Source: Stegostoma tigrinum (lineage: Eukaryota). From it: a DNA stretch of 64,000 bases. Of the stretch, positions 27,562-60,116 are shown piece after piece. The position numbers and the translations under genes were made by a program. A model generated the notes under the pieces. It was not told the origin of the DNA. It was given only the letters and a program-made list of their open reading frames with translations, and did not search any database. The stretch lies in contig NC_081386.1 in assembly GCF_030684315.1 (NCBI RefSeq), positions 29,741,020 through 29,805,019 of the forward strand, read 5' to 3'. The first letter of the stretch is position 1. Every line of letters begins with the position of its first letter.

Positions 27562-28496
27562 AGAGACCACTCTCTCCGTGACTCCCTTGTTCGCTCCACA
27601 CTGCCCTCCAACCCCACCACACCCGGCACCTTCCCCTGCAACCGCAGGAAATGCTACACTTGCCCCCACACCACCTCCCTCACCCCTATCCCAGGCCCCA
27701 AGATGACCTTCCACATTGGCAGATGTGCAGGTGAACCTCTGTTTAATGTGGTATACCGCATCCACTGTACCCGGTGTGGCTTCCTCTAATTGGGGAAACC
27801 AAGCGGAGACTTGGGGACCGCTTTGCAGAACACCTCCACTCGGTTCGCAACAAACAACTGCACCTCCCAGTCGCAAACCACTTCCACTCCCCCTCCCATT
27901 CTTTAGATGACATGTCCATCATGGGCCTCCTGCAGTGCCACAATGATGCCACCCGAAGGTTGCAGGAACAGCAACTCATATTCCACTTGGGAACCCTGCA
28001 GCCCAATGGTATCAATGTGGACTTCACCAGCTTCAAAATCTCCCCCTCCCCCCACCGCATCCCAAAACCAGCCCAGTTCGTCCCCTCCCCCCACTGCACC
28101 ACACAGCCAGCCCAGCTCTTCCCCTCCACCCACTGCATCCCAAAACCAGTCCAACCTGTCTCTGCCTCCCTAACCTGTTCTTCCTCTCACCCATCCCTTC
28201 CTCCCACCCCAAGCCGCACCTCCATCTCCTACCTACTAACCTCATCCCACCTCCTTGACCTGTCCGTCTTCCCTGGACTGACCTATCCCCTCCCTACCTC
28301 CCCACCTATACTCTCCTCTCCACCTATCTTCTTTTCTGTCCATCTTCGGTCCACCTCCCCCTCTCTCCCTATTTATTCCAGAACCCTCACCCCATCCCCC
28401 TCTCTGATGAAGGGTCTAGGCCTGAAACGTCAGCTTTTGTGCTTCTGAGATGCTGCTGGGCCTGCTGTGTTCATCCAGCCTCACATTTTATTGTCT
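27562..28496 (+). mobile_element. 5'-truncated Penelope-like element (family B) with GIY-YIG remnant and terminal hammerhead motif
   Basis: VVYRIHCTRCG..IGETKRRLGDRFAEHLHSV..PVANHF. 13-bp TSD TGTGTTTTGTCTT at 27549-27561 and 28497-28509. Confidence 0.9.
28402..28433 (+). ncRNA. Minimal hammerhead ribozyme motif (Penelope type)
   Basis: ct-CTGATGA-agggtctaggcct-GAAA-cGTC-ag: conserved core, short stem II, palindromic ACGT in place of stem III. Activity untested. Confidence 0.6.
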
Positions 28497-28522
28497 TGTG
28501 TTTTGTCTTTGTTATTTTGTAG

Positions 28523-28637
28523 GAATGTAGGAAAGGAGCCTGAGGTCCTGGACAAAAAACCTCAGTTCCACCTGGATCTTTGGTTTTATTTCACTGTGCA
28601 GAACTGGATCCTGGATTTTGGCCGTCCAATTGCAATG
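28523..28637 (+). CDS. CLN6: CLN6 exon 2
   Basis: tttgtag|G...QFHLDLWFYFTVQNWILDFGRPIAM|gtgagt, 115 nt. Confidence 0.96.
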
Positions 28638-29352
28638 GTGAGTCCTGAGTTGACAAATTTGTATTGACTGAATGGAATCCTTGGACTTGGAAAAGCATGC
28701 CCAGTGACTACCCAGAGCTAATGCTGCTTCTGTAGAGAAGGCCGAGAGGCAACCCAACAGAGGCCTTTAACGTTCTGAAAGGGTTTGGTACACAATAAAT
28801 AGAGATGATGATCCCATTTTTTTGGGGAGACCAGAACTCAGACCATCACTATTAAACAATTAGTGATAAAATTAATAGGGAATTCAGGAGAACCCTCCAC
28901 ACAGCAGTGAGAATGTGGGATTTCCTACCACAAGTTGTAGAACTAAAGCGTATTAATGCATTTAAAGCAACTGGATAATCATGAGGCCAAAGAAATAGAA
29001 GGATATGACAATAGTGTGAGAACAGGGAATTTGTGTTGAGCAGACCTTAGCATGGGCTGTGTAGTCTGAATGATCTGGTTCAATGCTGTAGGTTGTGTGC
29101 TATCCTTCAGGAAAGTGCACTCTGTCAATACTGGGTGCGTTTAGTATGATGGCTCTGTGTTAAATAAACTGCCTAGTTTAACACAGGAAAAGTAGCTTTT
29201 TTTTGACGAGTTGTACTCTGACCCCATCAGCGTGGGAGGTGAGTTGTAGGATCTGGGATTGTGTTGAGGGGTAGAAGATGCTTCTGTTTATACTGTCCAT
29301 GCCATTTTACCCATATGAAACTGAGCAGGGTCCGTTGTGTGCTCGTTCATAG

Positions 29353-29451
29353 ATTGTTCTTCCAGTCGAGTGGTTTCCATTGAATAAACCAAGTGTCGGT
29401 GATTATTTTCACATGGCCTACAACATCATCACACCTTTCCTCCTCCTGAAG
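29353..29451 (+). CDS. CLN6: CLN6 exon 3
   Basis: catag|[33 protein letters not shown]|gtaagg, 99 nt. Confidence 0.96.
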
Positions 29452-30359
29452 GTAAGGTCTTTGCTGTCTATCACAGAGGTTACAATGGGGTCTTTGTGTC
29501 CCTATCGAATCCATGCCTTTGGCTTAATGATAAAGTGCGGAATTGAGTGTGGATCTGACCCCAGAGGAGCTCAAAGCTTCCAAAGTTGATTCTTGATCTT
29601 TTTTGTTGCATTAGATTTTTGCATCGGGGGTTAATCCTGGAGATGCCATGACTTAATGGGTTGGCTTCCCCAAAAGCATCCAGGATTGAGATCCTTGTGT
29701 TAGGTAGAAGGACTGGCAAGCCTGCTAAAAATGTGGCAAACATTACATTTCTGCTAAGTGACCAAACCCTGGCTATGTCTGCCTTTACCAATTGGTCTTT
29801 TAGGAGGGAGAGCACCCAGCCATGTGCTGACTGCCTCCGACTGAATTTAAAGCTCGTGGGAGGGTAGGGACCAAGAACTGACTTTTCTATGTTGCCATGC
29901 ATAGTTGAATAGCTTGTTGTGACTCCCACAGTCTAGGCTTACACATGCAACCATCCTGAATCAAACAATGTGTCTTTCCTCCAGTCCTAATTTCTCAGGA
30001 TCAGGCTGTACCCTTGTTTAGATTGGTCTGTACACAAATTACTGTGGTTTGCCACTGCCTTCTACAAGGTGGCTGACCAGGAAACTCTTCCTCTTAACTA
30101 CCTGCCATCAGGCTTTTCCTTGGCCAACAAGTCCTGGTGTGGGATCGAACCCAGAGCCTCTAGCACTGAGGTGGGGATCCAACCCCAAGTGCCACAAGAC
30201 CTACTGCATCAAACTGTAGCCCTTTCAGAAAAGAGGGGAGAATAGAGAAATGGCAGCAGAAACAGACATGTTGAAGATCAGGAAGAGGTGATCATTGAGC
30301 TCTCAAGGGCTTATTTCCAGAATATGTTAGTGTTTACTCAATCTTGAATATTTTTGCAG

Positions 30360-30548
30360 CTTATCGAGCGTTCTCCCAAGACACTCCCTATCTCAGCGGT
30401 GTACATCTGTATAATAACATTTGTCATGGGAGCAAGCATTCACCTTGTTGGCGATTCAGTGAATCATCGTCTGATTTTAAGTGGTTACCAACTCCACTTG
30501 TCTGTGCGTGAAAACCCAATTATGAAGGACTTGAAACCAGAAACGTTG
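30360..30548 (+). CDS. CLN6: CLN6 exon 4
   Basis: tttgcag|[10 protein letters not shown]...[15 protein letters not shown]...KPETL|gtaaga, 189 nt. Confidence 0.96.
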
Positions 30549-31430
30549 GTAAGAGCCATTGCATTGATAAATGTTTTCAGTCTGATCAAACCCATGAAAG
30601 TTTTGCTCTGTTCAGGATACAGGGATATGCAGTGAGTTTGACATTTGTCTTTTTAATCTCTTTCATATCCCTGATTTTCATTGCTCCATTATTGGCAGCT
30701 ATGCCTTTAGCATTCAGGATCTGAGGTTTTTGATCATGTGTTAATTCTTTAGGACATATTACAAGCTTAAACCAGACTTAGTAACTGTTAAATTGTTTTA
30801 TCGTTACACCGTGAATGATAGTAAGGCTACGGACCAACGTGCTCAGAGCAGTCCAATGTCCAACCTCTTAGCAGAACATTAGGATGTGGCACTCTGATTG
30901 TGTTTGCTTTGTGAAGTGTCTTTTGATGGTTTACTGCATTAGTGGTGCTACACAAATGTTGATAAATTGAAAGTAGCTGCTTGTTTGGCTTTAAGGCGCC
31001 AACTGGATGAGGAGGGGGTGTTGGATAAACAGAATGCTGAAAATTCCAGCAGATGAGACAGAATCTGTGGAGAGAGGAACAGAGTTAACTTTCCTCAGAC
31101 TTTTCAGAACAATGAAAATTCACCAGTTTGAAATGAGTTAAATCTCAGTCCAGTTCTGTAGAAGTCCTGAGTGCATGACATCAACTAATTGGCATTAATC
31201 GAGGTCCATAATCTCATTGGGTGTGTCTCTGGATGACTGGTGAAGGACATGATAAATGGTATTATTGGAGGCGATCTCCTGTGATGGGTACAGGGCCAGG
31301 GAAGAGGGAATCTTCACAATACGCTGGAACTGGTGCCCTTGAGTACAAAATTCGCTCAACCTGACTATTGTACCGAAGAAACACAGCTGGGCTATTGTCA
31401 AAGTTTATCATTTTTTGTTTAAATCCACAG

Positions 31431-31486
31431 ATTGACTCGTTTGAACTGCTGTATTACTATGACGAATCCTTGGGCCACTTAATGTG
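31431..31486 (+). CDS. CLN6: CLN6 exon 5
   Basis: ccacag|IDSFELLYYYDESLGHLM-TG|gtaagt, 56 nt. Confidence 0.96.
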
Positions 31487-33328
31487 GTAAGTAATTTGAA
31501 GGAGAAGTAGCTTCCTATGGCATGTACACGAGGCAGCCAGAATCAGCTCTGATGGCTCAGTGGTAACCTGTTGTGTTTCCCCAGCACAGACATCCTGTCA
31601 GTGTTCCCAGCTCTTGACAGGTTCCTCCTGGGTTAGAGAATGGGTAGTGAGTGGGCTGCCTCCACCAGTGACATCTGGACCTGCTTGAGAATTCGGTTGC
31701 TCTCTCTGGTCACTCAAATGTCTCAGTCCTACACATGAAGGATGATAACTGGGTCATTTGGTTCCTTTTTGAATCAATTCCTTCAGGACTCAACTAGTCC
31801 CATAAATGGAGAAAAGCTGGGGGTGAGTAACAACTGAAAGGTAATAACCTGGTCAGACTGTGCCAATTGTGTGAGTCTGTGTGCTCCATATATTGAGTTT
31901 ATCCTCCGATTCTACATCCCCTGCAGTGTCCAAGAGGTTACAACACAATCTTTCCAACTGTTCCATTGGAAGCGAGATATTGTTTAAAATGCCTGCTTGT
32001 TTCAGTGCAGGTATTGCTGCAGGATGTTGAATAGAGCAACATCTATACAGATTCATTAACGTTTGATGACTGTGTGAGAAACTTGGGCGTAACTATCAAG
32101 TGAAGCATTTCATTTAAGCTTATGAGCTGGCACTTGGCCCGCATCACCCTCCATTAGTTTTGTTGTTCTCAGACTCTCGTCCGTCCTCCCCCCACCTCCA
32201 GCTTATTCCTTTCATCCTCTGGGATCCAGTTTCGAAGCAGCAAAAGAACACATCTTGTAATATAGATAACACGGTGGTGTGCATGGAGATGAATACACAC
32301 CACCCTAGTGAAGTATGATTGCATGTGATATGTAACCTATTTGAGGATGTTGGTGCTTCATGTGTAATCTATTATCTCGATTTTGTTTTGTTTGAAGTGA
32401 AGTCTGTAATTTAGGCTTTTTTCTTGAAGGCACAGTCCTGTTCTTTTTTTTTAAGAAAATGAATATCTCCTCTGGGAATGTAAAGGACAAACACTTTTTT
32501 TTTGTATTACCTGGCATTTAGCTTCAATTGGCGGCTTTGCTCATCTGTCTAATGCAACAGTCATTTTGTTATTAGTCACTGCTGGAGCTGAGATGACCAT
32601 GAGTTGCGGGGGCCTTGGTGCACCTTGGAAACTGCTGTATTTCTATTAGGAGTTCAGTGGGAGGGACTCACCTTTGACCCTGGTCTGTGCTAAATGAATT
32701 GATCCCTTCGATCTCAAAGTCCTTGGATCGAGAGGAGAAAAGAATAGCTGTCCAGTATTCACCCTTAATTGCTGGAAAGTGTGTACATCGCTGTACTCAC
32801 ACTTGAGTGCATGTCTCACTGTCTTTTGTGCATACTGAATGAAAATTGGGTCAGATCAGCAAAAATATGCTGTAACTTGTAGAGTCATAGATGTACGGTG
32901 TGGAAACAGACTCTTTTGGTCCAACTCATCCACGTTGACCAATTATCCTAACTTAATCTAGTCCCATTTGCCAGCATTTGGCCCACATCTCTCTCAGCCC
33001 TTCTTATTCACGTACCCATCCAGATGCCTTCTAAATGTTGTAACTTTACTCGCCTCCTCCACTTCCTGCAGCAGCTCCTTCCATATATGCACCACCCTCG
33101 TGTTTGAAGATCCTGCCACGACCGCTAACTTGTGTGAAAACATGCTCCATGCCAGGAGATTTCTGACTTCATAAAGCAGGTTGATATTGCAAAGAACCTT
33201 TACTTGATCCATGATGCCTGAGTAATCATTGCATCTATTTGTGAGGCTGCAGTTCAAGCTGCTACTTTGGTTCTGGGGTATGAAGAAAAGCTTGGTTGAC
33301 TAATTCCTTGTGTCGATTTTTGTTTCAG

Positions 33329-33451
33329 GTATGTTCCGTTCTTCGTCATTTTCAGTCTGTATTTCACTGGGTGCTTCACTCGCTGTAACAGAGATAGCAG
33401 AATGCCCCTGTCAGCATGGCTGCTGCTTGGGCCAAGTAGCCTGTACTACTG
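33329..33451 (+). CDS. CLN6: CLN6 exon 6
   Basis: tttcag|G-YVPFFVIFSLYFTGCFT...LLLGPSSLYY-TG|gtaaga, 123 nt. Confidence 0.96.
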
Positions 33452-34439
33452 GTAAGAGACAAAGTGCTTAACAAAGAACAACCACAACTTTGCCTTTCAG
33501 TCTATGGGAATGCCGTGTTCGGGGTGGGGTTTGGGGGGTGCAAATCCCACTTTAGGGCTTGAGCTTGAAAACCAAGACCCTCCCCATCAGTGCAGGCCTG
33601 AAGGAATGCTGCGCTGTCAAGAGGTGACAATAAACTGAGGGCTACTGTGGTGGATCCAAAAGATTTAAATAACACTGTTTCAAAGAAGGGAATGTGATGG
33701 ATGATATTTACCCTTCATTCAAAAACGTGGAAACATGTTATCTGGTGATACCCCTTTTTTGGGATTTTGCTGTATTGCCATTCAGCTGCCGTGTTTCCAA
33801 TATTAGACCAGTGACTACACCATGAAAGTACTCGATTAGCTGTGACGCTGGAGACACCTGCCAATCTAGAAAAGCACTGAGTTAATTCCAGATTTACTTT
33901 AGTCTTAAATGTCACCGTGATCAGTTCTGGAATATGTGTACAAGAATGAGGTACTAAGGTGCTGGTTGAGTCATTCAAAATGGCCAGCCTAGCCTAGAGA
34001 ATGACGGTTCATAAACTCATGTTTGTAGTTCAAATTCAGTTTGTTTTGACTAAATAAATAATTCTAGAAATGAAAACAGCCTCCATTTAAGGAAAAAGAT
34101 CATGTGTCCGCTGTTCACAAATAGTTCAACCTAAAAGCAAACCTACTGGCTTTACCCACTCTAGCCTATATGTGACTTCAGTCCCATACCCCTTTAATTT
34201 TTCACTGAAAAGGCCTGGCAAGCCACTGGTTTATATTGACCTTCTAACCTGGTGCTGTCTAGAAGGTTGGGTCACTACCACCTTGTCGCAAGATAGCTGT
34301 TTGTGCAGAAGATCCATTCAACTCAAATTAATTCTCCTGAAGGATCTTCAGTCTCCAGTACAGGCATCCAGTTGATCCTGAAATGATTCTAAGGGCTTTT
34401 CTTCTACTTGTTTATTGGGCTGAAATTTATTCCCATTGG

Positions 34440-34960
34440 AGACCATAAAATATATGAGCAGAATTAAGCCATTTTGCCCACTGACTCTGCTCTGCCATTG
34501 GATCATGGCTGATATGTTTCTCAACTCTAGTCTCCTGCCTTCTCCCCATAACCCTTGAACCCCTGACTAATCAAAAACTTTCTATCGCTGCCTTAAAGAC
34601 ATCAATGACCCGACCTCCACAGCTCTCTGCGGCAATGGGTTCCACAGGATATCCACCTGGCCGAAGAAATTCCCCCTCATACCAATTCTGAAGTGTCATC
34701 CCTTCACTCTGTGGTGATGCCACCTCAGATCTTAGTATCTCATACTAGTGCCAACCTCCTCTCCACATCCAATCTATTCAGGCCTCTCGGTATCCTGTAA
34801 GTTTCAATGAGATTCCCCCCTCGTCCCTCTCTACTCCATAGAGTAGAGATTCAGAATCCTCAACTTCTCCTTGTAAGAGAAGCCCTTCATCACTGTCTTT
34901 TGAACTTCCTCTGGACTCCCTGCTGTGCCAGCACATCCATCCTTAGATACCAGGTGCAGT
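34440..34960 (-). mobile_element. CR1 3' fragment in CLN6 intron 6
   Basis: Typical CR1 3' end (gatcatggctgat...ccccataacccttg). Confidence 0.75.
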
Positions 34961-35251
34961 CAGTCTGTTTACAACTGTACACTGCTATCACCCCTGAGTC
35001 AGTAATCCTCCTGTTCTCTCCTCCCCACTCCCCCAATCATTTATATCTGAAGAAGAATCCTTGGAGTCCATCCTAAAATGTATTACTTGTCCTAATGTTA
35101 CAATTGCATTTAAGCCATGTTATAATCTACTACCTTCAGAAGGGGAAGGAATAAGTGATGGGGAGTGGAATTTATTTGAAGTCCTTTGTAAAATTCTCAG
35201 AACCTGATTGTAAGTGAATGTTACAGTTTAGTCGTTGACCTCTTTCTTTAG

Positions 35252-35522
35252 GTATCTGGTGACTGAGGGTCAGATCTTCGTCCTCTATATCTTTACCACT
35301 TTTGCAATGATTGCAACAGTCATGCACAACAAGCGTAAAGGACTGGTGATGGACAGTAATGGCCTCTTTTTATTTTACTCTTTCTGCATTGCTCTGGTCC
35401 TCATCTCTGCCTGGGTCGCCTTCCTGTGGAACGACAAAATTCTCCGCAAAAAGTACCCTGGCGTCATGTACGTTCCAGAGCCTTGGGCGTATTATACCCT
35501 GCACATCAAGAAAACACTGTAG
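35252..35522 (+). CDS. CLN6: CLN6 exon 7 (terminal coding)
   Basis: tctttag|[10 protein letters not shown]...DSNGLFLF...[26 protein letters not shown], 271 nt; total CDS 903 nt = 300 aa. Confidence 0.96.
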
Positions 35523-38329: not shown

Positions 38330-39015
38330 GTGTAGGTGCACAGTTCCTTGAAAGTGGAGTTGCAGGTAGACAGGGTGGTGAAAAAGACATTTGCACTTGC
38401 CTTCATTGTTCAGCACATCTGAGTGCAAGAGTTGGGTCATTGTTTTGGGGCTGTACAAGACATGGGTTAGGTCAGTTTCAGAATACTGCATTTAATTTTG
38501 GTCTTCCTGCTATTAAATATTTTGTTAAACTTGAGAGGGTTCAGAAAAGATTTACAAAGATGTTGGAGGGTTTGAGCTATAGAGAGAGGCTGAGAAGGCT
38601 GGGACTATTTTTCCTGCAGTGACGGAGGTTGAGGGATGAGCTTCGTAGAGGTTTACAAAAGCATGAGGGGCATGGATTGGGTGAATTGCCAAGGTCTCTT
38701 CCCCAGCCTAGTGGTGTCCAAAACTCGAGGACAAAGGTTTAAGGTGAGAGGGGAAGGATTGAAAAAGGACCCAAGGGCCAGTGTTTTCATTGCAGAGGGT
38801 TATGCATATATGCCATGAACTGCCAGAGGAAATGGTGGAGGCTGGTACAGTTACACTTAAGAGGTATCTGGATGGGTACACTAATAGGAAGGGTTTAGAA
38901 GGAGATGGGCCAAATGCTGGCAAATGGGACTAAATTAATTTAGGATATCTGGTCAGCATGGATGAGTTGGACTGGAGGATCTGTTTCCTTGCTGTACATC
39001 TGTATGACTCTAATC
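38330..39015 (+). mobile_element. CR1 3' fragment
   Basis: VKLERVQKRFTKMLEGLSYRERLRRLGLF. Confidence 0.85.
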
Positions 39016-39834: not shown

Positions 39835-40735
39835 ATACATCAGTCATCAGTGTCCCTCACAGATGAGGATAGCTCTCTTCCACACTCAGGGTGAGTCTGT
39901 AGGTGGTTACACTTGGGGCAGGTGATGGTCACAGGAGGAGGTGGATGGGGCATTAGTGCAGCAGCACGCTCCTTTCCCTGTTTTTGCTGGGCTTCCGCTT
40001 TTTCATGACAGCAAGTCTGGAGGTGTTCGGCCCTTCCCAAATGCTCCTCTCCACTTTGGACAGTCTTGGGCCAGTGATTTCCAGGTTTCTGTGGGAATAC
40101 TGCACTTTGCCAATGAGGTCTTAAGGGTATCACTAAAGCACTTCCTCTGTGTCCACCTGGGGCTCAGCTGCCATTTTGGAACTGGGAGTGGAGCATCTGC
40201 TCAGGGACCCTCCTGTCAGTCATGCGGATAATATTGCCCACCCTTGATTGGCAACAGTGCCTCAAAAACGCTGGTGCATCCGTCCTCCCATGGGAATTCG
40301 CAGGACCTCGCACAGGCAGTATTGGTGGTACGGCTCCAGCACCTCGAGGTGTCTGCTATAGACAGTCCATGTCTCAGAGGAGAGCAAGAACCACCATAGC
40401 TCTGTAAACCATGATCTGGATATTGAACCTGATGTTCTTGAAGACCCTTTTCCAGTGGCTGAAGGCTACGCTAGCACACAGGAGGCAAGATAATAAAATG
40501 TGAGGCTGGATGAGCACAGCAGGCTCAGCAGCATCTCAGGAGCACAAAAGCTGACGTTTCGGGCCTAGACCCTTCTTCAGAGAGGGGGATGGGGTGAGGG
40601 TTCTGGAATAAATAGGGAGAGAGGGGGAGGTGGACCGAAGATGGAGCGAAAAGAAGATAGGTGGAGAGGAGAGTATAGGTGGGGAGGTAGTGCTGGATCT
40701 CTTCATCAATAGCTGCTCTGGACAACAGGACACTC
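39835..40735 (-). mobile_element. RTE-like LINE 3' fragment (interrupted by Penelope at 40487-40690)
   Basis: IDEEIQH...FMVYRAMVVLALL; C-terminal WKSLAQDCPKWR and CPKC motif, typical of the RTE clade. Confidence 0.7.
40487..40690 (-). mobile_element. Penelope family B 3' fragment with hammerhead motif (40551-40582), nested in an RTE-like LINE
   Basis: Near-identical to 28290-28496 in reverse; reads CTGAAGA-a-GGGTC-ta-GGCCC-GAAA-CGTC on the minus strand. Confidence 0.85.
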
Positions 40736-42470: not shown

Positions 42471-43539
42471 TAACCCTTATGAACATACTGTACCTTCCAT
42501 TATAATGCCTATCTTTGCCTGAGAGTGTACAATATAAGCAAAGTAATTGAGTGACTGAGATAACACAATGTGGAGCTGGATGAACATAGCAGGCCAAGCA
42601 GCATCAGGGGAACAGGAAAGCTGGTGTTTTGGGCCTAGACCCTTCTTGAGTGACTGTCTGAAAGGCTTATGTACATTACCCCACCCATGAGCACAGAATG
42701 TCACACTAGACAGGTGTCAATAGCTTCAAAGAGAAGAACTTCAAATGGGAAAATGCCATGCAAACTGAACTGTAACCTTTTGTGAATTATCTCACATTGT
42801 CAATGTGTTTGTGTGAGAGACATTTGTGTGTTCCCCTTTTGAGGATACTAAAGAATAGGGGATTGAAAGCCAAGCTCACTCCTGGTCTGGGTGCACTAGT
42901 AGGTGAGTGTGTTTGCTGTGCGGGTCACAGCTGACAAACATAGCTATCCCTGTGGTAAAAAGAAAAGGAGATTCTATCATTTTGCCAGGAATCAAAAAGC
43001 AGGTGAAATCATAATCCAAGGAAAAACAAGCTTTTCCAGTTCACCCACCAGGATCACCATTATAGCTTTACCTAATGAAATAGCCACAACATCCTGTTGT
43101 CTACTCTTTGTTGAACTCCGAGACCGATCCACATGGTTTTAAAGTTTTTTTTCTGGACTGGCCTCTCATTCCTAAACTGTGTGTAATCTGTGTGGCATTA
43201 TTGCTTCTTTGCATGTTTATTAGTTAATGAACTTTTGTTTTCATCCATTCAAAAAAGTCTGGTCAAATTGGTTCCTTTCTAAAACCTGATTTTATTCGGT
43301 CCAGGAGAAAGGTAAGCAAGCTGATTTGATTAGTTGAGAGATCGAATTCAAAGATTTGAGCAGTAACAGCACATTTAAAGGACTTTGGAATGAACATTAG
43401 GGTCGGAGATGTGGATTTTATTGAATTGCAGAGAGCTGTAACATTAGGGAATTTATCAGGTTGTATCATTTGTGTTGACATTTACCAAGGTATCATGTTG
43501 GAACTGAGTCACACAGGAGACTCTACAAGATTCAGTTGT

Positions 43540-45259: not shown

Positions 45260-45805
45260 GAGTTTTGAGAAGATTTGTAGCTCAACAACACACTAAAACA
45301 GCAGCTAATGAACTTAAAAGACCCTATACAGACAACAAGCAAAACGAACGTCATTTACAAAATACATTGCAAGAACTGTGACAAACATTACATTGGACAA
45401 ACAGGCAGAAAGCTAGCCACCAGGATACATGAACATCAACCAGCCACAAAACGACATGACCCACTATCACTAGTATCCTTACATACAGATGAGGAAGGAC
45501 ACCACTTTGATTGGGACAACACATCCATCCTAGGGCAAGCCAAACAGAGACACGCATGAGAATTCCTAGAAGCATGGCATTCCAACTGGAACTCCATCAA
45601 CAAACACATTGATTTGGAGCCCATCTACCATCCTCTGAGAAAAAGAACAGGAAATGACATCACCAACCCAAGGAAACCTAAACAGATAAATAGAAAGCGG
45701 GACATAACACCAGCGCTTTGTCGGAGGCTTACTGATGATGTTACCTAGAATGGTGACGAAACGTCTGAAAACGAACCTTCCAGCTCAGCGAGCAAACTCA
45801 CATCC
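45260..45805 (+). mobile_element. Penelope-like element (family C, Poseidon-like) with inverted 5' terminal fragment
   Basis: GIY-YIG NVIYKIHCKNCDKHYIGQTGRKLATRIHEH with a premature stop at 45557-45559. 13-bp TSD ACTGACAAAGGGT at 45247-45259 and 45806-45818. Confidence 0.9.
45729..45768 (+). ncRNA. Minimal hammerhead ribozyme motif
   Basis: tta-CTGATGA-t-GTTACC-tagaat-GGTGAC-GAAA-cGTC-tga: 6-bp stem II, 3-bp stem I, GUC cleavage triplet ending at 45765. Confidence 0.7.
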
Positions 45806-46164
45806 ACTGACAAAGGGTCACCAGATCTGAAACATTAACTCTGATTTCTCTCCACAGATGCTGCCAGAACTGCTGAGCTTTTCCAGCAACTTCTGTTTTT
45901 GCCCCGAAGAATCCTGTTTGCATCAATAAGATCATTTCCTATTCTTATATATTCCAACCACAAAGAGTTAGAGAAATACAGAGTTTGGAAAGCCAGAGGA
46001 AAGAGAGAGAAAAAATGACAAGGAAAGGTTTCACCAGGAGGACAAGAATTTTAATGTTCCGGAGAACATTTTTATTTATGACTAGATGTTCGGTCCAGTC
46101 CTCAAACGTAGTACGCATGTGATATAATTACGTCAACATAGGAGATAAAAGGTAGCATTTGCAA

Positions 46165-49064: not shown

Positions 49065-49863
49065 TGTGAGTTTGCTCGCTGAACTGGAAGGTTCGTTTTA
49101 AGACGTTTCGTCACCATTCTAGGCAACATCATCAGTGAGCCTCCGGTGAAGCGCTGGTGTTATGTCCCGCTTTCTATTTATCTGTTTAGGTTTCCTTGGG
49201 TTGGTGATGTCATTTCCTGCATTGGTGATGTCATTTCCTGTTCTTTTTCTCAAAGGATGGTAGATGGGCTCCAAATCAATGTGTTTGTTGATGGAATTCC
49301 GGTTGGAATGCCATGCTTCTAGGAATTCTCGTGCGTGTCTCTGTTTGGCTTGCCCTAGGATGCATGTATTGTCCCAAAGTGGTGTCCTTCCTCATCTGTA
49401 TGTAAGGATACTAGTGATAGTGGGGCATGCCTTTTTGTGGCTAGTTGATGTTCATGTATCATGGTGGCTGGCTTTCTGCCTGTTTGTCCAATGTAGTGTT
49501 TGTCACAGTTCTTGCAAGGTATTTTGTAAATGACGTTCGTTTTGCTTGTTGTCTGTATAGGGTCTTTTAAGTTCATTAGCTGCTGTTTTAGTGTGTTGGT
49601 GGGTTTGTGGGCAACCATGATGCCAAGAGGTCTGAGTAGTCTGGCAGTCATTTCCGAAATGTCTTTGATGTAGGGGAGAGTGGTTATGGTTTCTGGGCAC
49701 GTTTTGTCTGTTTATTTGGGTTTATTGCTGAGAAATCGGCGGGCTGTGTTCATTGGGTACCCGTTCTTTTTGAATACGCTGTATAGGTGATTTTCTTCTG
49801 CACAGATTTTCTTCTTCTTCACATCCAGAACCTCAACCTGAGCTACAAATCTTCTCAAAACTC
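49065..49863 (-). mobile_element. Penelope-like element (family C), second copy; hammerhead motif at 49099-49138
   Basis: Same GIY-YIG peptide (ORF 49355-49651). TSD (C)GTTGTCTCAGC at 49053-49064 and 49863-49874. Inserted in a CR1 3' end. Confidence 0.9.
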
Positions 49864-50329
49864 GTTGTCTCAGCATTTACCCTGTCCAACCCTTAAATAA
49901 CAACCAAAAGAACTGTGGATGCTGTAAATCAGGAACAAAAACAAAGTTGCTGGAAAAGTTCTAATGAGTAGAATCCCAACCTGTTTAGCTTTTGCTCAGA
50001 AGACAATCCACCCCTACCAGGAATCATCCTAGCCAGCTTTCTCTGAGCTGCTTCCAATGATATATTTCCTGAAATACACGGCCCAAAATACTATGGTACA
50101 TAAAATGTGGCCTCACTGGTAACTTCCACAGTTGCAGTAAGGCTTCCTTTCTGCTATACTCTAAACCCATCATGAATATGAGCTGCCATTCCATTAGCCT
50201 TTCTGACTATCAGATGCCCCTGTGTGCTAGCTTTCTGTGTTTCATGCACAAGTTCCCCAAAGTCCCTTTTGTGTTGCAACTTTCTGCAGATTTTCTCCAT
50301 TTGAATAGTACTGTTCTGGTTTGATATCT

Positions 50330-52510
50330 TTGGCAAACAGGATTAAGAAGAAACCCAGGACCCTTTATAGGTATATTAGAAGTAAGAGGGCAACACCAGG
50401 GAAAGGCTAGGTCTTCTCTAGGCATGGGAGGGAATTTGTGCGTGGAGCCAAAGAAAGTGGGTGAGATATTTAATGAGTACTTCTCATCAGCATTCACCAA
50501 GGAGAAAGACATGGATGATGGGAGGATTAGGGAGGGATATGTTGATGTTCTAGGGCATGTTAATATTAATAAGGAGAAGGTGTTGGCATTATGAAAAACA
50601 CTAAGGTTGATAAGGCTTGTTGGGATACTGAGAAAGGCAAGGAAAGAGATCATTGGGGCCTCGACAGATAGCATTTTGTCCTCTTCTGCCACAGGTAAGG
50701 TCCCAGAAGACTGGAGAGTAGCTAATGTTTTTTCTTTGTTTAAGAAGGGCAACAATGACAATCCAGGAAATTACAGACCAGTGAAGTTTACATCAGTGGT
50801 AAGGAAATTATTGGAGAAGATTCTTAGTGGAAAATTTACCATGCTTGTACTTGCGAAAAGAATGAACTTCTTAGGTTTAGTGAACATAATTTTGTGTGGG
50901 GGAGGTCTTGTCCCACAAATTTGAATGAGTTTTTTGGGGAAGTGATGAAGATGATTAATGAGGGTAGGGCAGTGAATGTAATCTACATGGACTTTACTAA
51001 GGCATCTGACAAGGTCCTTCATGGTAGGCTGGCCCAGAAGATTATGTTTCATGGGATCCACAGTGAGTTGGTAAGTTGGAAACAAAATTGGCTTGGTCAT
51101 GGAAGACATGGGGTAGCTGTGGAGGAGTGTTTTTTTTTCTGTCTGGAGGTCTGTGACCAGTGGTGTTCCACAAGAAATTGTGCTGGCAATCTGTTGCTTG
51201 TAATATATATAAATGATTTGGATGAAAACGTAGGTGGTCTGATTAGTAACTTTGCAGATGATACAAAAATTGGTGAAGCTATGGATAGTGAGGAAAGCTA
51301 TCAAAGGATACAGCGGGATATAGATCAGCTGGAAAGTTGAGTGGAGAATGCCAGACAAGCATGAGGTGATGCATTTTGGGATGTCAAGTGCAAGACAAAA
51401 GTAAACAATAAATGACAGGACCCTTAGGAGCATTGATATGCAGAGGCACTTAGGTGCAAATCCATAGCTCCCTGAAAGTGATAGGTAGATAAGGTGGAAA
51501 AGAAGGCATACAACATGTGTGCCTTCATCAATCAGGGCATTGAGCACAAAAGTTAGCAAATCACATTGCAGCTGTATAAAACTTTATTTCTAAAAAAAAC
51601 CCAGAAGAAATGCGGGTGCTGTGAATCAGGAATAAAAATGAAGTTGCTAGAAAAACTCAGCAGACCTGGCAGCATCCGTGAAGGAAAAAACAGAGTTAAC
51701 ATTTCAATGATAATGGGAACTGCAGATGCTGGAGAATCCAAGATAATAAAATGTGAGGCTGGATGAACACAGCAGGCCAAGCAGCATCTCAGGAGCACAA
51801 AAGCTGACGTTTCGGGCCTAGACTCTTAACATTTCAAGTCTGGTGTTTTGAGGAAGGGTCACCAGACTTGAAACGTTAACTCTGAGTTTTTCCTTCACAG
51901 ATGCTACCAGACCTGTTGAACTTTTCCAGCAACTTTGTTTTCAAAACTTTATTTCTACCACATTTGGAGAATGCAGTTCTGGTCACCACACTATAGGGTG
52001 TGGAGGCTTTGGAGAGGGTGTAAAAGAGATTTAGCAGGATGTTGCCTGGATTCAAATATATTAGTTAGAAGGAGAGGTTGGACAAACTTGGGTTGTTTTC
52101 ACTCAAGAGTCAGAGGCTGAGGGGTGACATGATAGAAGTATATAACGTTATGAGAGGCAAGGATAGGGTGGATAGTTTGAATCTCTTTCCCAGAGTAGAA
52201 ATGTCAAATACTAGGAGGCATAGGTTTATGGTAAGGGTGGTGGAGGGGGAGAGTTCAAAGGAGATGTGCAAGGCAAGTTTTTTACACAGAGGGTGGTAGA
52301 CGCCTGGGGTAGAATCCTGGCACTGCTCGGGGGTGTGGTAGAAGCAGAAACGATAACAGTGTTTAAGAGGCATTTAGATAGACACATGAACAGGCAGGGA
52401 ATATAGAGATATAGAACAAGTGCAAGTAAATGGGATCAGCTTAGAATGGCATCATAGACAGTGCAGACATGGTGGGTTGAAGGGCCTATTCTTGTGCTGT
52501 ACTGATCTAT
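50330..52510 (+). mobile_element. Degenerate CR1 ORF2 (reverse transcriptase region)
   Basis: VPEDWRVANVFSLFKKGNNDNPGNYRPV; IYMDFTKASDKV; IYINDLD..ISNFADDTKIG. Confidence 0.9.
51590..51940. mobile_element. Family A fold-back element with a nested family B terminus (~51707-51825), inside a CR1
   Basis: Both arm types are recognisable; degenerate hammerhead TTGAGGA..GAAACGTTaac at ~51848-51880. Confidence 0.8.
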
Positions 52511-54989: not shown

Positions 54990-56155
54990 TCAAACAAAAA
55001 TGGAAATTGCTGGAGAAATGCAACAAGTCTGGTAGCGTCTGTGGAGAGGAAGCGGAGTCAATGTTTCAGGTCCAGTGAGCCTAATTCAGAACTGATTGTA
55101 GCTCGGGAAAGGTTGATAAATACGCTGAAGAAGTGGGGGCAGGGGGACCCCAGTGAGAGAGAGAAACAGCTGGGCGGACAAACTTAAAGGTTAAAGGTCA
55201 GCCTGGGAGAATGGTTACTTGCTGAGGGGAACCATTAGTGACTGAGAATGGTAGCAGCCCATGTGATGACAAGGCCTGGTATATGGGGCTGAGGGAAAAC
55301 ATGGGGAAAGGTGCTCAAGACCTCAAATTGTTGATCTCAATACTGAGTCCAGAGGGCTGCAGGGTTCTGAGTGGAAAATGAGGTGTTCTTCCAGCTTGTG
55401 CTGAGCTTCGCTGGAGCACCGCAACAAGCCAGAGACAGAGATGTTAGTCAGGGAACAAACATCCACATCAAAGGGATCATTAGTCACCATTTTCTGCAGG
55501 ATGGCACCACCAGACACATATTCCCCTCCCCTCCCTTGACCCGCCTTGTGTAAGGGCCATTCCCTTCAGGACTCCTTGGTCCACTCTTCCTCCACTCCCA
55601 ACACCTGCTCCCAACAACCCTACAGCACCTTCCCCTGAAATTTCAAAAGCTGTATCACCTGCCCATTTACCTCCTCCCCCTCCCCCCCCCCCCCCAGTAT
55701 CCAAGGGCCCAAACACACCTTCCAGGTGAAGCAACACTTCACCTGCATTTCATTCAATCTAGTCTGCTGCATTTGCTGCTCACAATGTGGTCTCCCCTAC
55801 ATTGGGGAAACAGAGCATTGACTAGGTGACCGCTTCTCAGAACATCCACATTCTGTCTGTAAAAATGACCCTAAGCTTCCAGTTGCCTGTAATTTCAACA
55901 CACCACCGTGTTCCCTGGCCAACACCTCTCTAGGTTCCATCTCCACCCACCGTTTACTCCTGTAATCCTCCACCTCATCCTCAGCATATATACCAACCCT
56001 TTTCTCGCTATAATCAGATCTGAAAAATGGTCAATGGACCCAAAACTTTAACTCTGCTTTCTCGTCACAGATGCCGCCAGACCTGCTGAGTTTTTCCAGG
56101 AATATCTGTTTTTATTTCTGATTTCCAGCATCCGCAGTTCCTTGGTTATTTTTGT
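54990..56155 (+). mobile_element. Degenerate Penelope element (family A) with inverted terminal repeat, nested in a Deu-type SINE
   Basis: Remnant YIGET..LGDRFSEH near 55797-55850; the termini are inverted copies of the ...tgctggaaaaactcagcaggtctggcagcatctgtggag... unit. Confidence 0.75.
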
Positions 56156-56809: not shown

Positions 56810-57300
56810 GTATACACATATGTAAGGGTATGTGTTTGGGTAGATTATGTATGTGTGTGTGTATGTGTGCATGTGTCTATATGTGTACGTGGGCATGTGG
56901 GGGTGTATGAGTGTGTTTGTGTGTGTATGTTCCTGTGTGTGAACATAAGTATTTATTCCTGTCTTCTTATTCCTATGTGCATGTGTGTATCTGTGTGTTC
57001 TGTGCATGTGTTTACTTGTTCCTGTGTGTTAAGTATGTATTTCTTCCTCTGTGTGTCTACGTTGCTGTGAATTTGTGCGCATTTGTGTCTTTAGTCCTGT
57101 TTATGTCTGGATGTGTATCTGTCACCACTGTGCGTGTATGTCTATATTCCTGTGTATGCGTGACTATGTCATGTCGCTGTATGTTTGTTCCTGTGAATGT
57201 TCTGCATGCATGTGTTTCTGTGTGCATGTTCCTGTATGCGTGTGTTCCTGAGTGTGTTTGTTCCTGTGGGTGTATGTTCCTGTGGTTGTGTGCATGCCTG
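56810..57300. repeat. TG-rich low-complexity / degenerate microsatellite
   Basis: Repeated tgtgtg/tatgtg/tgttcctgtg units. Confidence 0.9.
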
Positions 57301-57369
57301 TAAGATAGATTAACAGCTGGTAGCTGGAATCTGACCCTGTGGGAAGCCTGATCCCGTAACCATAGTGAC

Positions 57370-57440: not shown

Positions 57441-57532
57441 TGGAGTTTAGGGCAAGCTGTACTGGATTGCAACTAGAGAGACAAACACATCATTAAAGGG
57501 AGAAGGAAAACAGGGAGGAAGCAAAAGAAAAA

Positions 57533-57535
57533 ATG
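57533..57535 (+). CDS. CALML4: CALML4 exon 1 coding part (ATG only)
   Basis: aaaATG|gtaaaa followed by an 89-nt intron; calmodulin-family genes typically have an intron directly after the ATG. Confidence 0.65.
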
Positions 57536-57624
57536 GTAAAAATACAACAGGAGAAACCCAGAGCTTTCAAAATAATTCTTCATGTGGAAACACAAAGCAA
57601 TAACTTTTGTTGTTCCAATTACAG

Positions 57625-57655
57625 GCTAAATTTTTCACTCAAGATGAAATCCATG
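57625..57655 (+). CDS. CALML4: CALML4 exon 2 (AKFFTQDEIH-E); later exons not found in this window
   Basis: ttacag|GCTAAATTTTTCACTCAAGATGAAATCCATG|gtgagt. The 31-nt exon is typical of the calmodulin family, resembles human CALML4 AKFLSQDQIN, and sits in the syntenic position after CLN6. Confidence 0.85.
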
Positions 57656-60014
57656 GTGAGTATGAGTCTATATATGGTATGGTATGTTTGTTTACTTATG
57701 TCTTGAAGGTTATTGGAGTCCCTAGTGCCTAACCTCTGTTCCCCTGCTATGGCGACAATCTCCTCTCCTCAAACATCCCTCTAATCTTTGGCCCCCAGTT
57801 CTGAGGCCCTGTAAATTATAGTGACCTGTCCCCAGGTGAGATTCCCTAATTTATTACAGTTCCACATGGATGTCCCACATTGTCAGAAGTCCCAGGTAAG
57901 GACAAATAAACTGTCTCCCCATTTTATTTATCAGTCCCCTCTGTTGGATGCAACAAGGTGAACTTAAGAAAGAACCCCTTCCTTCATGAAGGCCTTTCTC
58001 CCAGACAAAAGAACTTCAGGTTTGAAAAGGGGCCAGTTTAACTAGGCTTTTTTTGAATTAACAAATTAGCAAGTTTATTAGTTTCTAAACCTGAGGTGAT
58101 GACAAAAGAATTGAGTCCAATAAAAGGTAGAAGTTAAGGCAATACAGACCGGTCATGCATGCGGAGTAAATAGTGGAACAATGAGAATTGAGCAGTTGAG
58201 TTTGACTTTCCTGGCTTTGCAGTTGGCCAAAATTCTTTTGTCCCATTTCCTTTTGAACTGGTTTGCTAACTAGTTTCCAGTGCTCAAAGAGAGATTTCCT
58301 TTACTTGAAATACAGGGGTGACTAGTGGATGCTTCTTCAACTGTGACTTTCACATTCCACCAATTCTCAAACCCACAACAGTTCACACAAATAGCTCAAC
58401 CCATTCATACACATAAGAGTTTCAGCCTATTGATACATATAGAACAGGGCGAGACTTGCTTTAATCCCCCTATATTCTTGAAAGGGGAAATGCAACGGTA
58501 CTTATTGCCACAATCACTAACATTAGACCCATCGTGTTCATTGTCTAAGGTAGTCACAAGGGAATACAGTTCAGTTGGTAATATATTTCTCCCTTTGAAG
58601 CTACTTTGTTACTTTCAGATGTGACATTTCAGAAATCCTCCGCAGGTAGTCGATTGATTTACATTTTTGTCTGAATCTGTCCTCCTGAGAAAAATGTTGT
58701 AACAGCAACTGGACATAATTAAAAGTTTTTTTATATCCATGGGTGACCAGTCTCATGATCCACAGTCATGACATTTCCCTTGAAAAATGACTAATTCATT
58801 CTCATCTCATTTCAAAAATGCAGGGAAAAAAATAGAAAGTAACATTAAAAAAGACACATTCACTCCTGTACATAGAACATAGAACATAGAACACTACAGC
58901 GCAGTACAGGCCCTTCGGCCCTCGAAGTTGAGCCAACCTGTGAAACCAAATCGAAGCCCATCTAACCTACACTATTCCATTATTATCCATATGTTTATCC
59001 AATGACCAATCAAATGCCCTTACACTTGGCGAGTCTACTACTGTTGCAGGCAGGGTATTCCACGCCCTTACTACTCTCTGCGTAAAGAACCTACCTCTGA
59101 CATCTGTCCTATATCTATCACCCCTCAATTTAAAGCTATGTCCCGTCGTATAAAAGTGCCCTTGCATTGTAATACTACTCTCGGTCAATTCTACCTCTTC
59201 AGTTCTAAATCGAGTCTTTCAAGGTTATGGACGGGCTCTGCAATCCAGTTTCCTGGTGGTTTACTTTTATGTTGGGGCAACAAGCTCCAGTGAATAGCAT
59301 TGTAAACCTACCACAATAGTGATTGGCTTGTGGTCAGCATAACCTGTGGTCTCTCTATACTACTTTGTGATATAGATTTCAAAGTGTTTGACAGTCACTG
59401 TTAAACTGAAGGCTTCCTTCTCATAATTATAGAGTCAGAGCCATACAACACAGACACAGATCCTTTGGTCCAACTCATCAGTGGCTACCAGACATCCCAA
59501 TCTGACCTAGTCCCATTTGCAAGCATTTGGCCCATCTCCCTGTAAACCCTTCCTGTTCATATACCCATCTAGGTACCTTTTAAATGTTGCAGTTGTACCG
59601 GTCTCCATCACTTTGTCTGGCAGTTCATTCTATAGATGCACCATCCACTGCAAGAAAAGAAGTTACCCCTCAGGTCCTTCTTAAATCTTTCCCCGCTTAC
59701 CTTAAACCTATGTCCTCTAGTTTTAGACTTCCCCACCCTAGGAAAAATTCTATTTACTCTATCCACACCCCTCACGATTTTATAAACCTCCATGATGTCC
59801 CCTTATCCTCTAACACTCCAGGATAAAAAGCCCCAACCTACTCAACCTCTCCCTGTAACTCAAACCCTCTATCCTTGTAAATCCTTTCTGCACCCTCTCA
59901 AGTTTAACAACATCCTTTTTATAAAAGAATGACTGCAATTGTATGCAGTATTCTAAAAGCGGCCTCACCAATGACCTCTATAGCCGCATGACGTCCCAAC
60001 TCCTATATTCAATG

Positions 60015-60116
60015 CAACAAAAACAAAGTTGCTGGAAAAGCTCAGCAGTTCTGGCAGCATCTGTGGAGGAGAAAACAGAGTTAACGTTTCGGGTCCAGTG
60101 ACCCTTCCTCAAAACC
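60015..60116 (-). mobile_element. Family A half element with hammerhead-like motif (60079-60116)
   Basis: ggtt-TTGAGGA-a-GGGTC-actg-GACCC-GAAA-cGTT-aact; the core C3 is replaced by T. Confidence 0.75.

What the first reader, a model, noticed from the sequence alone, without database searches (positions are those of the whole stretch)
28402..60116. Three Penelope-derived families scatter minimal hammerhead-ribozyme cores across the locus
Seen: the core CUGANGA-[stem II]-GAAA-CGUH recurs with family-specific stems. Family B: 28402-28433 (+) and 40551-40582 (-). Family C: 45729-45768 (+) and 49099-49138 (-). Family A: 60079-60116 (-), plus decayed copies near 10400, 45808, 51850 and 56020. Stem II differs in sequence but stays paired (GGGTC/GGCCC, GGGTC/GACCC, GTTACC/GGTGAC), and stem III is reduced to palindromic ACGT. 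Known: Penelope-like elements carry minimal hammerheads proposed to cleave as dimers. Inference: the many short non-coding A and B copies form a high-copy, non-autonomous, ribozyme-bearing (retrozyme-like) system in this genome that a protein-based annotation would miss.
Basis: partly seen in the sequence, partly recalled or inferred. Interest (0 to 1): 0.8.

Follow-up and report, generated by a model that had tools for sequence, protein, structure and literature searches.

The report
Hammerhead ribozymes of Penelope jumping genes
The small self-cutting RNA motifs are real, but they are the known terminal ribozymes of three protein-coding Penelope-type jumping genes, scattered mostly as short dead copies whose ends record where the element's RNA began and how it was copied.

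Summary
The minimal hammerhead cores are real (3 strict hits in the window, 0.01 in shuffles). They lie in the pseudo-LTRs of three autonomous Penelope-like (PLE) families: A and B Neptune-like, C Poseidon-like. Family B has at least 108,183 motif copies. This kind is known (Cervera 2014, Frangieh 2024, Li 2026), and this scan noted it in another genome.

The short copies are not a separate non-autonomous family. They are promoterless monomers or head-to-head pairs, their cores decay neutrally (2.7% vs 2.9%), and their 5' ends show no peak at the cleavage site.

Not found in the papers searched: many short B copies start four bases before the core, 30 nt after a TATA-like box, with a non-templated G (78 of 100). 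In C, 77 of 100 start at one base. This points to cDNAs run off a capped, uncleaved RNA from two internal priming sites.

Retrozyme-like tandem mini-elements (261-565 nt) exist elsewhere in the genome, not in this window. Three of four junctions tested are unique to one locus. Cleavage and expression are untested.

The parts
27562..28498 (+). Family B copy: 5'-truncated Neptune-like PLE with Zn-finger-like linker and GIY-YIG remnant (frameshifted), 3' UTR and pLTR, ending at priming site 1; 13-bp target-site duplication 27549-27561 / 28497-28509
   Evidence: 94% identical to longer copies with RT and EN
28370..28377 (+). TATA-like box (TATTTATT), 30 nt upstream of the 5'-end cliff of short B copies; inferred promoter element
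   Evidence: function inferred
28400..28433 (+). Family B minimal hammerhead: inferred RNA start 28400, C3 at 28404, 5-bp stem II (closing pair G.U in this copy), predicted cut after 28431, 2-bp stem I
40486..40690 (-). Family B copy, -135 to +67 relative to the cut site, non-coding; intact hammerhead 40551-40582, predicted cut after 40553
45260..45805 (+). Family C copy (Poseidon-like): inverted 25-nt tail piece 45260-45284, GIY-YIG remnant 45284-45556, TATA-like 45686-45692, position of the family's 5'-end cliff 45715, hammerhead core 45732-45765; 13-bp duplication 45247-45259 / 45806-45818; inserted into the core of a family A hammerhead
49065..49862 (-). Family C copy: inverted tail piece at its 5' end, GIY-YIG remnant, hammerhead core 49135-49102; 12-bp duplication 49053-49064 / 49863-49874
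60016..60116 (-). Family A short copy beginning at the hammerhead 5' edge; C3 mutated to U
54993..56150 (+). Family A copy with an inverted 5' arm, Zn-linker/GIY-YIG remnants (54% identical to family B over 59 aa) and a decayed hammerhead near 56020; links family A to a Neptune-like PLE
45806..45901 (+). Decayed family A copy whose core was the target of the family C insertion (its inverted tail arm is at 45218-45250)
51631..51941 (.). Head-to-head family A pair (51631-51705, 51845-51941) with a family B arm (51709-51827, -22 to +97) between the arms
10323..10514 (.). Decayed head-to-head family A pair inside the intron of the FEM1-type gene (left of the finding's range)
61664..61818 (.). Head-to-head family B pair (-1..+62 and +7..+100), 15-bp duplication; gives the sub-threshold Rfam mir-2756 hairpin hit
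21266..21365 (+). Family B copy that begins exactly at the predicted cut site (+1 to +100); the genome-wide tally says this is compatible with chance
42558..42653 (-). Older B-type short copy with a decayed hammerhead (78% identical)
17601..17668 (-). Older B-type fragment lacking the 5' half of the core

Best explanation
The motifs are the pseudo-LTR hammerheads of three autonomous endonuclease-bearing PLE families, and the scattered copies are by-products of their replication. Coordinates are relative to the predicted cut site (+1 = first base after it). (1) Shown: the family B ribozyme lies between the 3' UTR and an ORF that starts at +140 and encodes RT and GIY-YIG. (2) Inferred: a polymerase II transcript starts about 30 nt after a TATA-like box, at -32 in B (4 nt before C3) and 16-17 nt before C3 in C, so the ribozyme is at or near the 5' end of a capped RNA. 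(3) Shown as a genomic signature, and matching published in vitro work: the target is cut with a stagger of about 14 bp, and each strand primes reverse transcription at its own internal site (+65, +100). (4) Inferred: the two cDNAs stop early or run off the uncleaved RNA, copy the cap as an extra base, and join head-to-head, often through a 2-nt GC overlap. This gives the 100-250 bp copies, which lack the promoter and then decay neutrally. (5) Inferred: catalysis matters only in master transcripts, where two pLTR ribozymes cut as a dimer or with the element's protein to give unit-length, ligatable RNA. A circular or head-to-tail template then yields more-than-unit copies. (6) Shown: a minority of B insertions are mini-elements that join the ORF start to the 3' UTR, some repeated 2-8 times inside one insertion. 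Inferred: these are rolling copies of a small circular template, that is, nascent retrozymes.
For: Coding linkage. Length continuum with a cliff: 69 of 99 family B arms have 5' ends between -40 and +45, at 1.9 ends per nt in -40..-26 against about 0.05 per nt in -499..-41. Non-templated G before -32 in 78 of 100 listed copies (3,584 in all), against 8 of 47 at breakpoints +1..+11, Fisher p 2e-12; 54 of 76 remain after dropping 24 junctions that could be fold-backs. Family C: 77 of 100 listed breakpoints (695 in all) at one of 18 positions scanned. Head-to-head pairs: 19 of 20 have one arm ending at each priming site; in 12 of 19 neither arm can be a copy of the other; 17 of 20 have an 8-17 bp duplication. 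Neutral decay: 20 of 737 core vs 43 of 1,474 non-core mismatches in 67 copies, p 0.89. Across families: 19 of 80 stem cells change on both sides, 0 of 500 shuffles reach this. Arrays: L129 has 6 forward and 2 inverted units inside a 14-bp duplication, all 8 with a variant seen in no other fetched locus; L071 and L130 are similar. Published support: two RT start sites, both-strand extension, uncleaved RNA as the main substrate and protein-assisted cleavage for a lizard Poseidon (PMC11167929).
Against: No RNA evidence for the start site, cap, cleavage or circles. The extra-G test was inconclusive for family A (letter before GTTCTGA: A 44, G 27, T 22, C 7 of 100; 14 of 44 A-starts preceded by G). 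In C the first G is also the templated base, so only the cliff is shown. Tallies were read by eye from the first 100 listed matches (contigs C1, C2); both arms of a palindrome can be counted; the exclusion patterns favour some junction types. Some 5' ends near -29 are alignment ends of older subfamilies rather than true ends. With four subfamily-variable columns kept, non-core mismatches are 6.4% against 2.7%, which fits selection on masters but depends on how columns are classed. Family B's stem I is only 2 bp, and predicted minimum-energy folds of B monomers, dimers and three unit circles do not form the hammerhead. Pfam RT and GIY-YIG hits are below gathering cut-offs. No complete intact ORF was read. 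The alignment for held 10 copies that I chose by the motif, so paired stems are partly built in.
Confidence: 0.68

Rival explanations
1. One reading: the short A and B copies are an independent non-autonomous, SINE- or retrozyme-like family that is transcribed, self-cleaves and is copied from its own short RNA.
For: Very high copy number and a distinct short size class with sharp ends. One 329-nt mini-element junction is shared by 64 matches at about 34 loci, 10 of them tandem.
Against: Copies starting at the cliff lack the TATA-like box; ends are not at the cut site (5 of 97 at +1, p 0.27); pairs are head-to-head, not tandem; cores decay neutrally, 37 of 67 still intact; the same sequence continues into coding copies. 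The tandem subset differs in structure and I found none in the window.
Confidence: 0.08
2. The 5' cliff and extra G mark an arrest of the polymerase, or a processed uncapped RNA end, with untemplated C addition, rather than a capped transcription start.
For: Some reverse transcriptases add untemplated C at template ends (recalled). The region upstream of -32 is a pyrimidine tract. No clear G excess in family A.
Against: G is not enriched at other breakpoints (8 of 47). The cliff lies 29-30 nt after a TATA-like box in two unrelated families. About a third of arms pass through the tract with a low stop rate. A structure-induced stop would be expected on the 3' side of the stems, not beyond their 5' edge (inference).
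Confidence: 0.14
3. Head-to-head pairs arise by self-priming or fold-back, possibly on an antisense template (proposed for rotifer PLEs in PMC3846280).
For: Perfect palindromes with no loop are common in C. In 7 of 19 B pairs the tail arm contains the other arm.
Against: In 12 of 19 pairs the site-1 arm reaches further 5' while only the other arm has the tail, so neither can be a copy of the other.
Confidence: 0.06
4. The tandem arrays are DNA-level expansions after insertion (slippage or unequal crossover between two pLTRs), as suggested in the 2026 preprint, with no circular RNA involved.
For: Three of four junctions tested occur at one locus only. Units differ at only 1-2 columns.
Against: In L071 and L129 the inverted arm carries the same junction and variant as the forward units, all inside one 14-bp duplication. 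Both arms also share a junction in L107, L113, L117, L119 and L127. The 329-nt unit forms arrays at 10 separate loci.
Confidence: 0.12
5. The motif is kept for a non-catalytic role (protein binding, start-site or priming architecture) and does not cut in vivo.
For: No breakpoint peak at +1; 2-bp stem I in B; poor predicted folding. Published low in vitro activity and no cleaved ends in lizard RNA-seq; 8 of 9 frog dimers did not cleave.
Against: Catalytic core letters, not stems, are what is conserved across families. The lizard ribozyme cleaves with its protein and is killed by C3G or G8C.
Confidence: 0.15

Closest known systems
Minimal hammerheads (min-HHR) in pLTRs of metazoan PLEs (Cervera and De la Pena 2014, PMC4209133)
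   Same: Same core, extra base between positions 9 and 10.1, G10.1-C11.1 pair, palindromic 15.2-16.2, short stem I; several families per genome; mostly single motifs attributed to truncated PLEs; pairs on opposite strands.
   Different: Copy number: at least 108,183 exact matches for one family and about 170,000 strict motifs by extrapolation, against about 4,000 and 9,000 called remarkable there for coelacanth and Xenopus; the axolotl retrozyme section title in PMC7229834 gives up to 120,000. No cartilaginous fish in the parts I read.
Poseidon element of Anolis carolinensis (PAc; Frangieh et al. 2024, PMC11167929)
   Same: Two internal RT start sites bounding the tail, extension of both target strands, uncleaved RNA as substrate. 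Family C has the same layout, with an ATG at the start of stem II 28 nt before the cut (26 in PAc).
   Different: Family B is Neptune-like with the ATG 140 nt after the cut. A 5'-end cliff, extra G and GC-overlap junctions are not in the main text I read.
Non-LTR retrozymes of animals (Cervera and de la Pena 2020, PMC7229834; Li et al. 2026, bioRxiv 10.64898/2026.07.22.740005)
   Same: The genome's family B arrays are non-coding tandem units of about 300 nt, each with a hammerhead, PLE-derived, with long target duplications; one chondrichthyan is in the 2026 survey (mean unit 363 bp).
   Different: The window's copies are not tandem. The arrays carry minimal ribozymes, are 51-53% GC, include the first codons of the PLE ORF, keep the PLE inverted-arm signature, and mostly have locus-specific junctions.
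Inverted/palindromic pLTR insertions of Adineta vaga and of Naiad/Chlamys PLEs (PMC3846280, PMC8557442)
   Same: Inverted 5'-truncated copy, optional 30-40 bp tail, TATA and Inr-like motifs in the pLTR, microhomology-mediated internal deletions, non-autonomous head-to-tail derivatives (Chlamys).
   Different: There the palindromes were read as self-priming on an antisense template; here non-nested arms favour two sense-templated cDNAs. Naiads lack canonical hammerheads.

Membership tests
PLE minimal hammerhead (min-HHR) | Core CUGANGA ... GAAA ... UH with an extra base before stem II | tested here: met
   Met in 28404+, 40580-, 45732+, 49135- and in the majority sequence of A, B and C; not met in the A copy at 60079-60116 (U3)
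PLE minimal hammerhead (min-HHR) | Paired stem II with G10.1-C11.1; short stem I; covariation among families | tested here: met
   88.8% of 80 cells paired, 19 double-sided changes, 0 of 500 shuffles; slid controls 21-46%; the 10 rows were picked by the motif
PLE minimal hammerhead (min-HHR) | Palindromic positions 15.1-16.1 (ACGU) instead of stem III | tested here: met
PLE minimal hammerhead (min-HHR) | Self-cleavage (dimer or protein-assisted) | not testable with these tools
   Indirect only: no excess of copies starting at the cut; minimum-energy folds do not give the active shape
Endonuclease-bearing Penelope-like element | Single ORF with RT followed by C-terminal GIY-YIG | tested here: met
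   B: 520 aa open from the ATG to the end of locus L116; RT and EN in L089 with one stop; Pfam RVT_1 E 2.5e-4 and GIY-YIG E 1e-3, both below cut-off. C: GIY-YIG E 6e-4, RT not examined. A: linker/EN remnant only
Endonuclease-bearing Penelope-like element | pLTR partial tandems, inverted 5' copy, optional 30-40 nt tail, target duplication | tested here: met
Neptune clade (A, B) / Penelope-Poseidon clade (C) | Zn-finger-like linker before EN present (Neptune) or absent (Poseidon) | tested here: met
   CxxC-type linker in B and A, none in the corresponding C stretch; criterion from a passage of PMC8557442, which also gives it to Nematis
Neptune clade (A, B) / Penelope-Poseidon clade (C) | Placement in an RT phylogeny | not tested
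   No reference PLE sequences were fetched
Non-LTR retrozyme (window copies) | At least two consecutive head-to-tail units with complete hammerheads | tested here: not met
   No such array in the window
Non-LTR retrozyme (family B arrays elsewhere) | Head-to-tail non-coding units of about 150-400 nt with a hammerhead each and a duplication longer than 4 bp | tested here: met
   L071 301 nt, L129 329 nt, L130 362 nt; 14-bp duplications at L071 and L129; only one flank of L130 was fetched
Non-LTR retrozyme (family B arrays elsewhere) | GC below 50% and canonical type I ribozyme (2020 definition) | tested here: not met
   Units are 51-53% GC with minimal ribozymes; the 2026 preprint's definition admits minimal motifs
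Non-LTR retrozyme (family B arrays elsewhere) | Expression as self-processed circular RNA | not testable with these tools
   Only assembled contigs were available
Named Repbase/Dfam family | Match to an existing consensus | not testable with these tools

The most novel reading that the evidence does not exclude
This genome holds a fossil record of the Penelope replication cycle. The element's capped RNA starts a few bases before its hammerhead. Two cDNAs primed at the two internal sites run off the uncleaved 5' end, copy the cap and join head-to-head, which explains the inverted pLTR and tail signatures. The same machinery keeps giving birth to new retrozymes: small circular templates joining the ORF start (about +200 to +390, mostly near +215) to the 3' UTR (often -115) are rolled into tandem arrays in a single insertion event, mostly with no surviving parent locus.
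Probability: 0.45. Interest if true: 0.72.

Novelty: new member of a known kind. Interest (0 to 1): 0.42.

Why it matters
As a finding about ribozymes it is ordinary: minimal hammerheads in PLE pseudo-LTRs are described, and single copies here are neutral debris. The value lies in the numbers. PLE transposition is still only partly worked out, and only one full-length protein has been studied in vitro (PMC11167929). A young family with over 100,000 copies, about 4.9% of the sampled DNA (31,389 of 640,000 bases), gives base-level predictions for the RNA start, the cap, the two priming sites and the junction chemistry. It also supplies young intermediates between an autonomous PLE and a retrozyme, a link that the 2026 preprint argued from phylogeny. 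These make two open questions directly testable: what the ribozyme does for a PLE, and how retrozymes arise.

Tried and rejected
Ribozyme-defined 5' ends. Window copy 21266, L038 and the L104 junction begin exactly at +1, but among 100 listed breakpoints (6,520 in all; 3 dropped as indel or unreadable) only 5 of 97 were at +1 over 28 positions, p 0.27. Rejected.

Back-splicing as the source of mini-element junctions. The acceptor sides are not preceded by AG and the donor sides are ragged (by eye). Rejected.

One founder for all arrays. Periods differ (261, 293, 301, 305, 315, 329, 331, 333, 362, 565) and three of four junctions tested are single-locus. Rejected, though lost parent loci cannot be excluded.

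A cap signature at the -115 hot spot: no consistent G in 8 junctions read by eye. Extra-G test in family A: inconclusive.

Rfam: no hammerhead hit; mir-2756 is a sub-threshold match to a B palindrome. Pfam on the window's B remnant frames: 0 hits. Thermodynamic folding did not produce the hammerhead for B or the dimers.

Expression: no RNA holder listed. The four runs laid were contigs, which cannot show ends or strand. Two of them show a single extra base at joints at -32 and -30, in line, but they may be the assembly's own material and are not counted as support.

Earlier-findings look-ups by place and by sequence returned nothing. No phylogeny, no protein homolog search, no structure prediction and no covariance model were run.

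Full report
SETTING. The window is G000:C43:29741020-29805019 of a 3.2-Gb vertebrate genome. That it is a cartilaginous fish is my inference and was not tested. An ankyrin gene of FEM1 type lies on the minus strand (exons near 7876-9250 and 19047-19625; the name is recalled). CLN6 exons lie on the plus strand near 29353, 30348, 33300 and 35232 (4 of 87 segments scanned hit PF15156). About 30% of the window matches repeats in the fetched sample. Positions written +n or -n are relative to the predicted ribozyme cut in family B.

1. OBSERVATION. The five stretches are where stated. A strict descriptor gives 3 window hits against 0.01 in shuffles, and 34 hits in 640 kb of random genome against 0-1. 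Three details need correcting. The copy at 28402 has a G.U closing pair in stem II. The A copy at 60079 has U in place of C3. The C copy at 49099 has a broken stem I pair. Genome-wide exact matches, all lower bounds: B 108,183 for a 26-mer, C 7,202, A 1,916. Extrapolating the sample gives about 170,000 strict motifs and 450,000 family B arms. Family B covers 31,389 of 640,000 sampled bases.

2. WHAT THE FAMILIES ARE. The B copy at 27562-28498 runs upstream into a Zn-linker and GIY-YIG remnant and has a 13-bp target duplication. Longer genomic copies continue into RT. Downstream of the pLTR an ORF starts at +140 and is open for 520 aa to the end of locus L116. Pfam hits are weak (RVT_1 E 2.5e-4, GIY-YIG E 1e-3). 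Both C copies in the window carry GIY-YIG remnants, an inverted tail piece at the 5' end and 12-13 bp duplications. The first C copy landed inside the core of an A hammerhead. The A copy at 54993-56150 holds an EN remnant 54% identical to B over 59 aa. A and B have the Zn-finger-like linker given for Neptune (and Nematis) in PMC8557442; C lacks it. No tree was built. A relaxed scan of the fetched DNA gave 198 motifs in 8 clusters plus 14 singletons, with shared core and changing stems. On 10 copies picked from these, 19 of 80 stem cells change on both sides and no shuffle of 500 reaches that. Within B, 67 copies show 2.7% core and 2.9% non-core mismatches once CpG positions and four subfamily-variable columns are set aside (p 0.89); with those columns kept it is 2.7% against 6.4%. 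G12 lies in a CpG and is mutated in 21%; 37 of 67 cores are intact. Selection therefore appears to act on master lineages, not on inserted copies.

3. WHY THE COPIES ARE SHORT. Of 99 B arms, the 3' ends of all but the older, diverged ones cluster near +65 and +100, and 69 have 5' ends between -40 and +45. The density is 1.9 per nt at -40..-26 and about 0.05 per nt further up (some ends near -29 are alignment ends of older subfamilies). Of 20 head-to-head pairs, 19 have one arm ending at each site and 17 have an 8-17 bp duplication. In 12 of the 19 the site-1 arm reaches further 5', so neither arm is a copy of the other. This matches the two RT start sites and both-strand extension shown for the lizard element. 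There is no excess of ends at the cut (5 of 97). The cliff lies 30 nt after a TATA-like box at -62. Among copies starting at -32 with non-element sequence upstream (3,584 matches), 78 of the 100 listed have G before the start, where the master has C; 13 have T and 9 have A. The control breakpoints give 8 of 47 (p 2e-12). In family C, 77 of 100 listed breakpoints (695 in all) fall on one base, 29 nt after an ATAAATA box, many as perfect palindromes joined at GC; there the G may be templated. Family A has a TATAAA box and an initiator-like motif at the start of stem I (by eye), but its G test was inconclusive. An extra 5' G as a trace of cap copying is known for L1 (recalled). My reading is that short copies are cDNAs run off the capped, uncleaved 5' end. 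They lack the box and cannot start their own transcript.

4. THE RETROZYME-LIKE MINORITY. An ORF-start 32-mer has 2,520 matches. Of 27 independent loci fetched, 21 join the ORF start (+199 to +393, often near +215) back to a point upstream, 18 or more of them in the last 320 nt of the 3' UTR and 8 near -115; 6 look like long elements (by eye). Among the first 100 matches, 9 of 77 loci have same-strand repeats with periods of 261-565 nt (by eye). L129 has 6 forward and 2 inverted 329-nt units inside a 14-bp duplication, all 8 with one variant absent from the other fetched loci. L071 (301 nt) and L130 (362 nt) also share a minor variant across all 4 ribozymes, seen 2 and 6 times elsewhere. The L129 junction has 64 matches at about 34 loci on 22 contigs, 10 of them tandem. 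The L071, L130 and L124 junctions occur at one locus each. A shared junction in both arms means it was already in the template, which favours a circle or multimer over later DNA expansion. How the circle forms is open: ribozyme cutting of a since-lost parent locus, ligation of a protein-protected fragment, or repeated end-to-end template jumps. No such array was found in the window.

5. MECHANISM AND RIVALS. See Best explanation (0.68). Shown: anatomy, end distributions, neutral decay, covariation, arrays. Inferred: promoter, cap, catalysis, circles. The rivals address different steps and are scored separately.

6. WHAT IS KNOWN. PMC4209133 (parts 1-2 of 4 read: abstract, results, discussion) describes these motifs in PLE pLTRs, mostly as single copies, with low dimer activity, and proposes circles. 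PMC11167929 (parts 1-2 of 4 and a term search) gives the priming sites and protein-assisted cleavage. bioRxiv 10.64898/2026.07.22.740005 (parts 1-3 of 5 and a term search) derives retrozymes from PLE pLTRs and includes one chondrichthyan. PMC7229834 (passages and Discussion) proposes that PLEs mobilise retrozyme circles. PMC8557442 and PMC3846280 (passages) cover inverted copies, tails, pLTR promoters and internal deletions; the Drosophila start site in the pLTR is known to me only through the passage in PMC8557442. I read no supplements, and they may hold shark families. Five searches did not turn up a paper on the extra-G start signature or on single-locus array junctions in PLEs; I saw only listings for most hits, the library lacks most subscription papers, and Repbase and Dfam could not be checked. 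This scan recorded a similar hammerhead pair as a truncated PLE in another genome (e1-7858566); I did not check it.

7. VERDICT. Real motifs, known kind, new member. Interest 0.42, carried by the mechanistic signatures rather than by the ribozymes.

Noticed in passing
window 27562-28498 (+), upstream of the CLN6 exon at 29353: This B copy is sense to CLN6 and probably intronic (CLN6 exons 1-2 were not located), so the pre-mRNA would carry a monomeric minimal hammerhead with a weakened stem II; an effect on the host is unlikely but untested.
   Followed up: partly
window 45247-45818 and 51631-51941: Nested insertions: family C sits inside an A hammerhead core, and a B arm sits between two A arms. 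Could hint at targeting of pLTR sequence, or be chance given the density.
   Followed up: no
window 7876-19625 (-) and 29353-35519 (+): A FEM1-type ankyrin gene and CLN6 lie head-to-head, as FEM1B and CLN6 do in human (recalled).
   Followed up: partly
L104 (G000:C1:8020882-8023913), junction near 1451: A mini-element junction joins +248 directly to +1, exactly the predicted cut site; 1 of 21 junction loci.
   Followed up: partly
L088 minus strand, near 7902 from the reverse end: A further hammerhead-like motif with AGCU instead of ACGU as the helix III palindrome; single copy in the sample.
   Followed up: no
L109, about 1556-1642: About 85 nt of non-element sequence between the ORF-start part and the 3' UTR part of a mini-element, suggesting capture by template switching.
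   Followed up: no
G000:C1:2722798-2722882: Two same-strand B motifs only 59 nt apart, listed; a very short tandem, not read.
   Followed up: no
window 61684-61758: Head-to-head B pairs form long perfect hairpins that score as microRNA precursors (sub-threshold mir-2756); a large potential source of double-stranded RNA genome-wide.
   Followed up: no
window 16673-17450, 18700-18910, 32900-33100, 38240-39000, 46200-47620, 50200-51600, 59000-59870, 60700-61480: Many decayed LINE (CR1-like, by recalled motifs) fragments; two tested frames gave no Pfam hit.
   Followed up: no
window 56840-57310: Degenerate TG-rich minisatellite.
   Followed up: no
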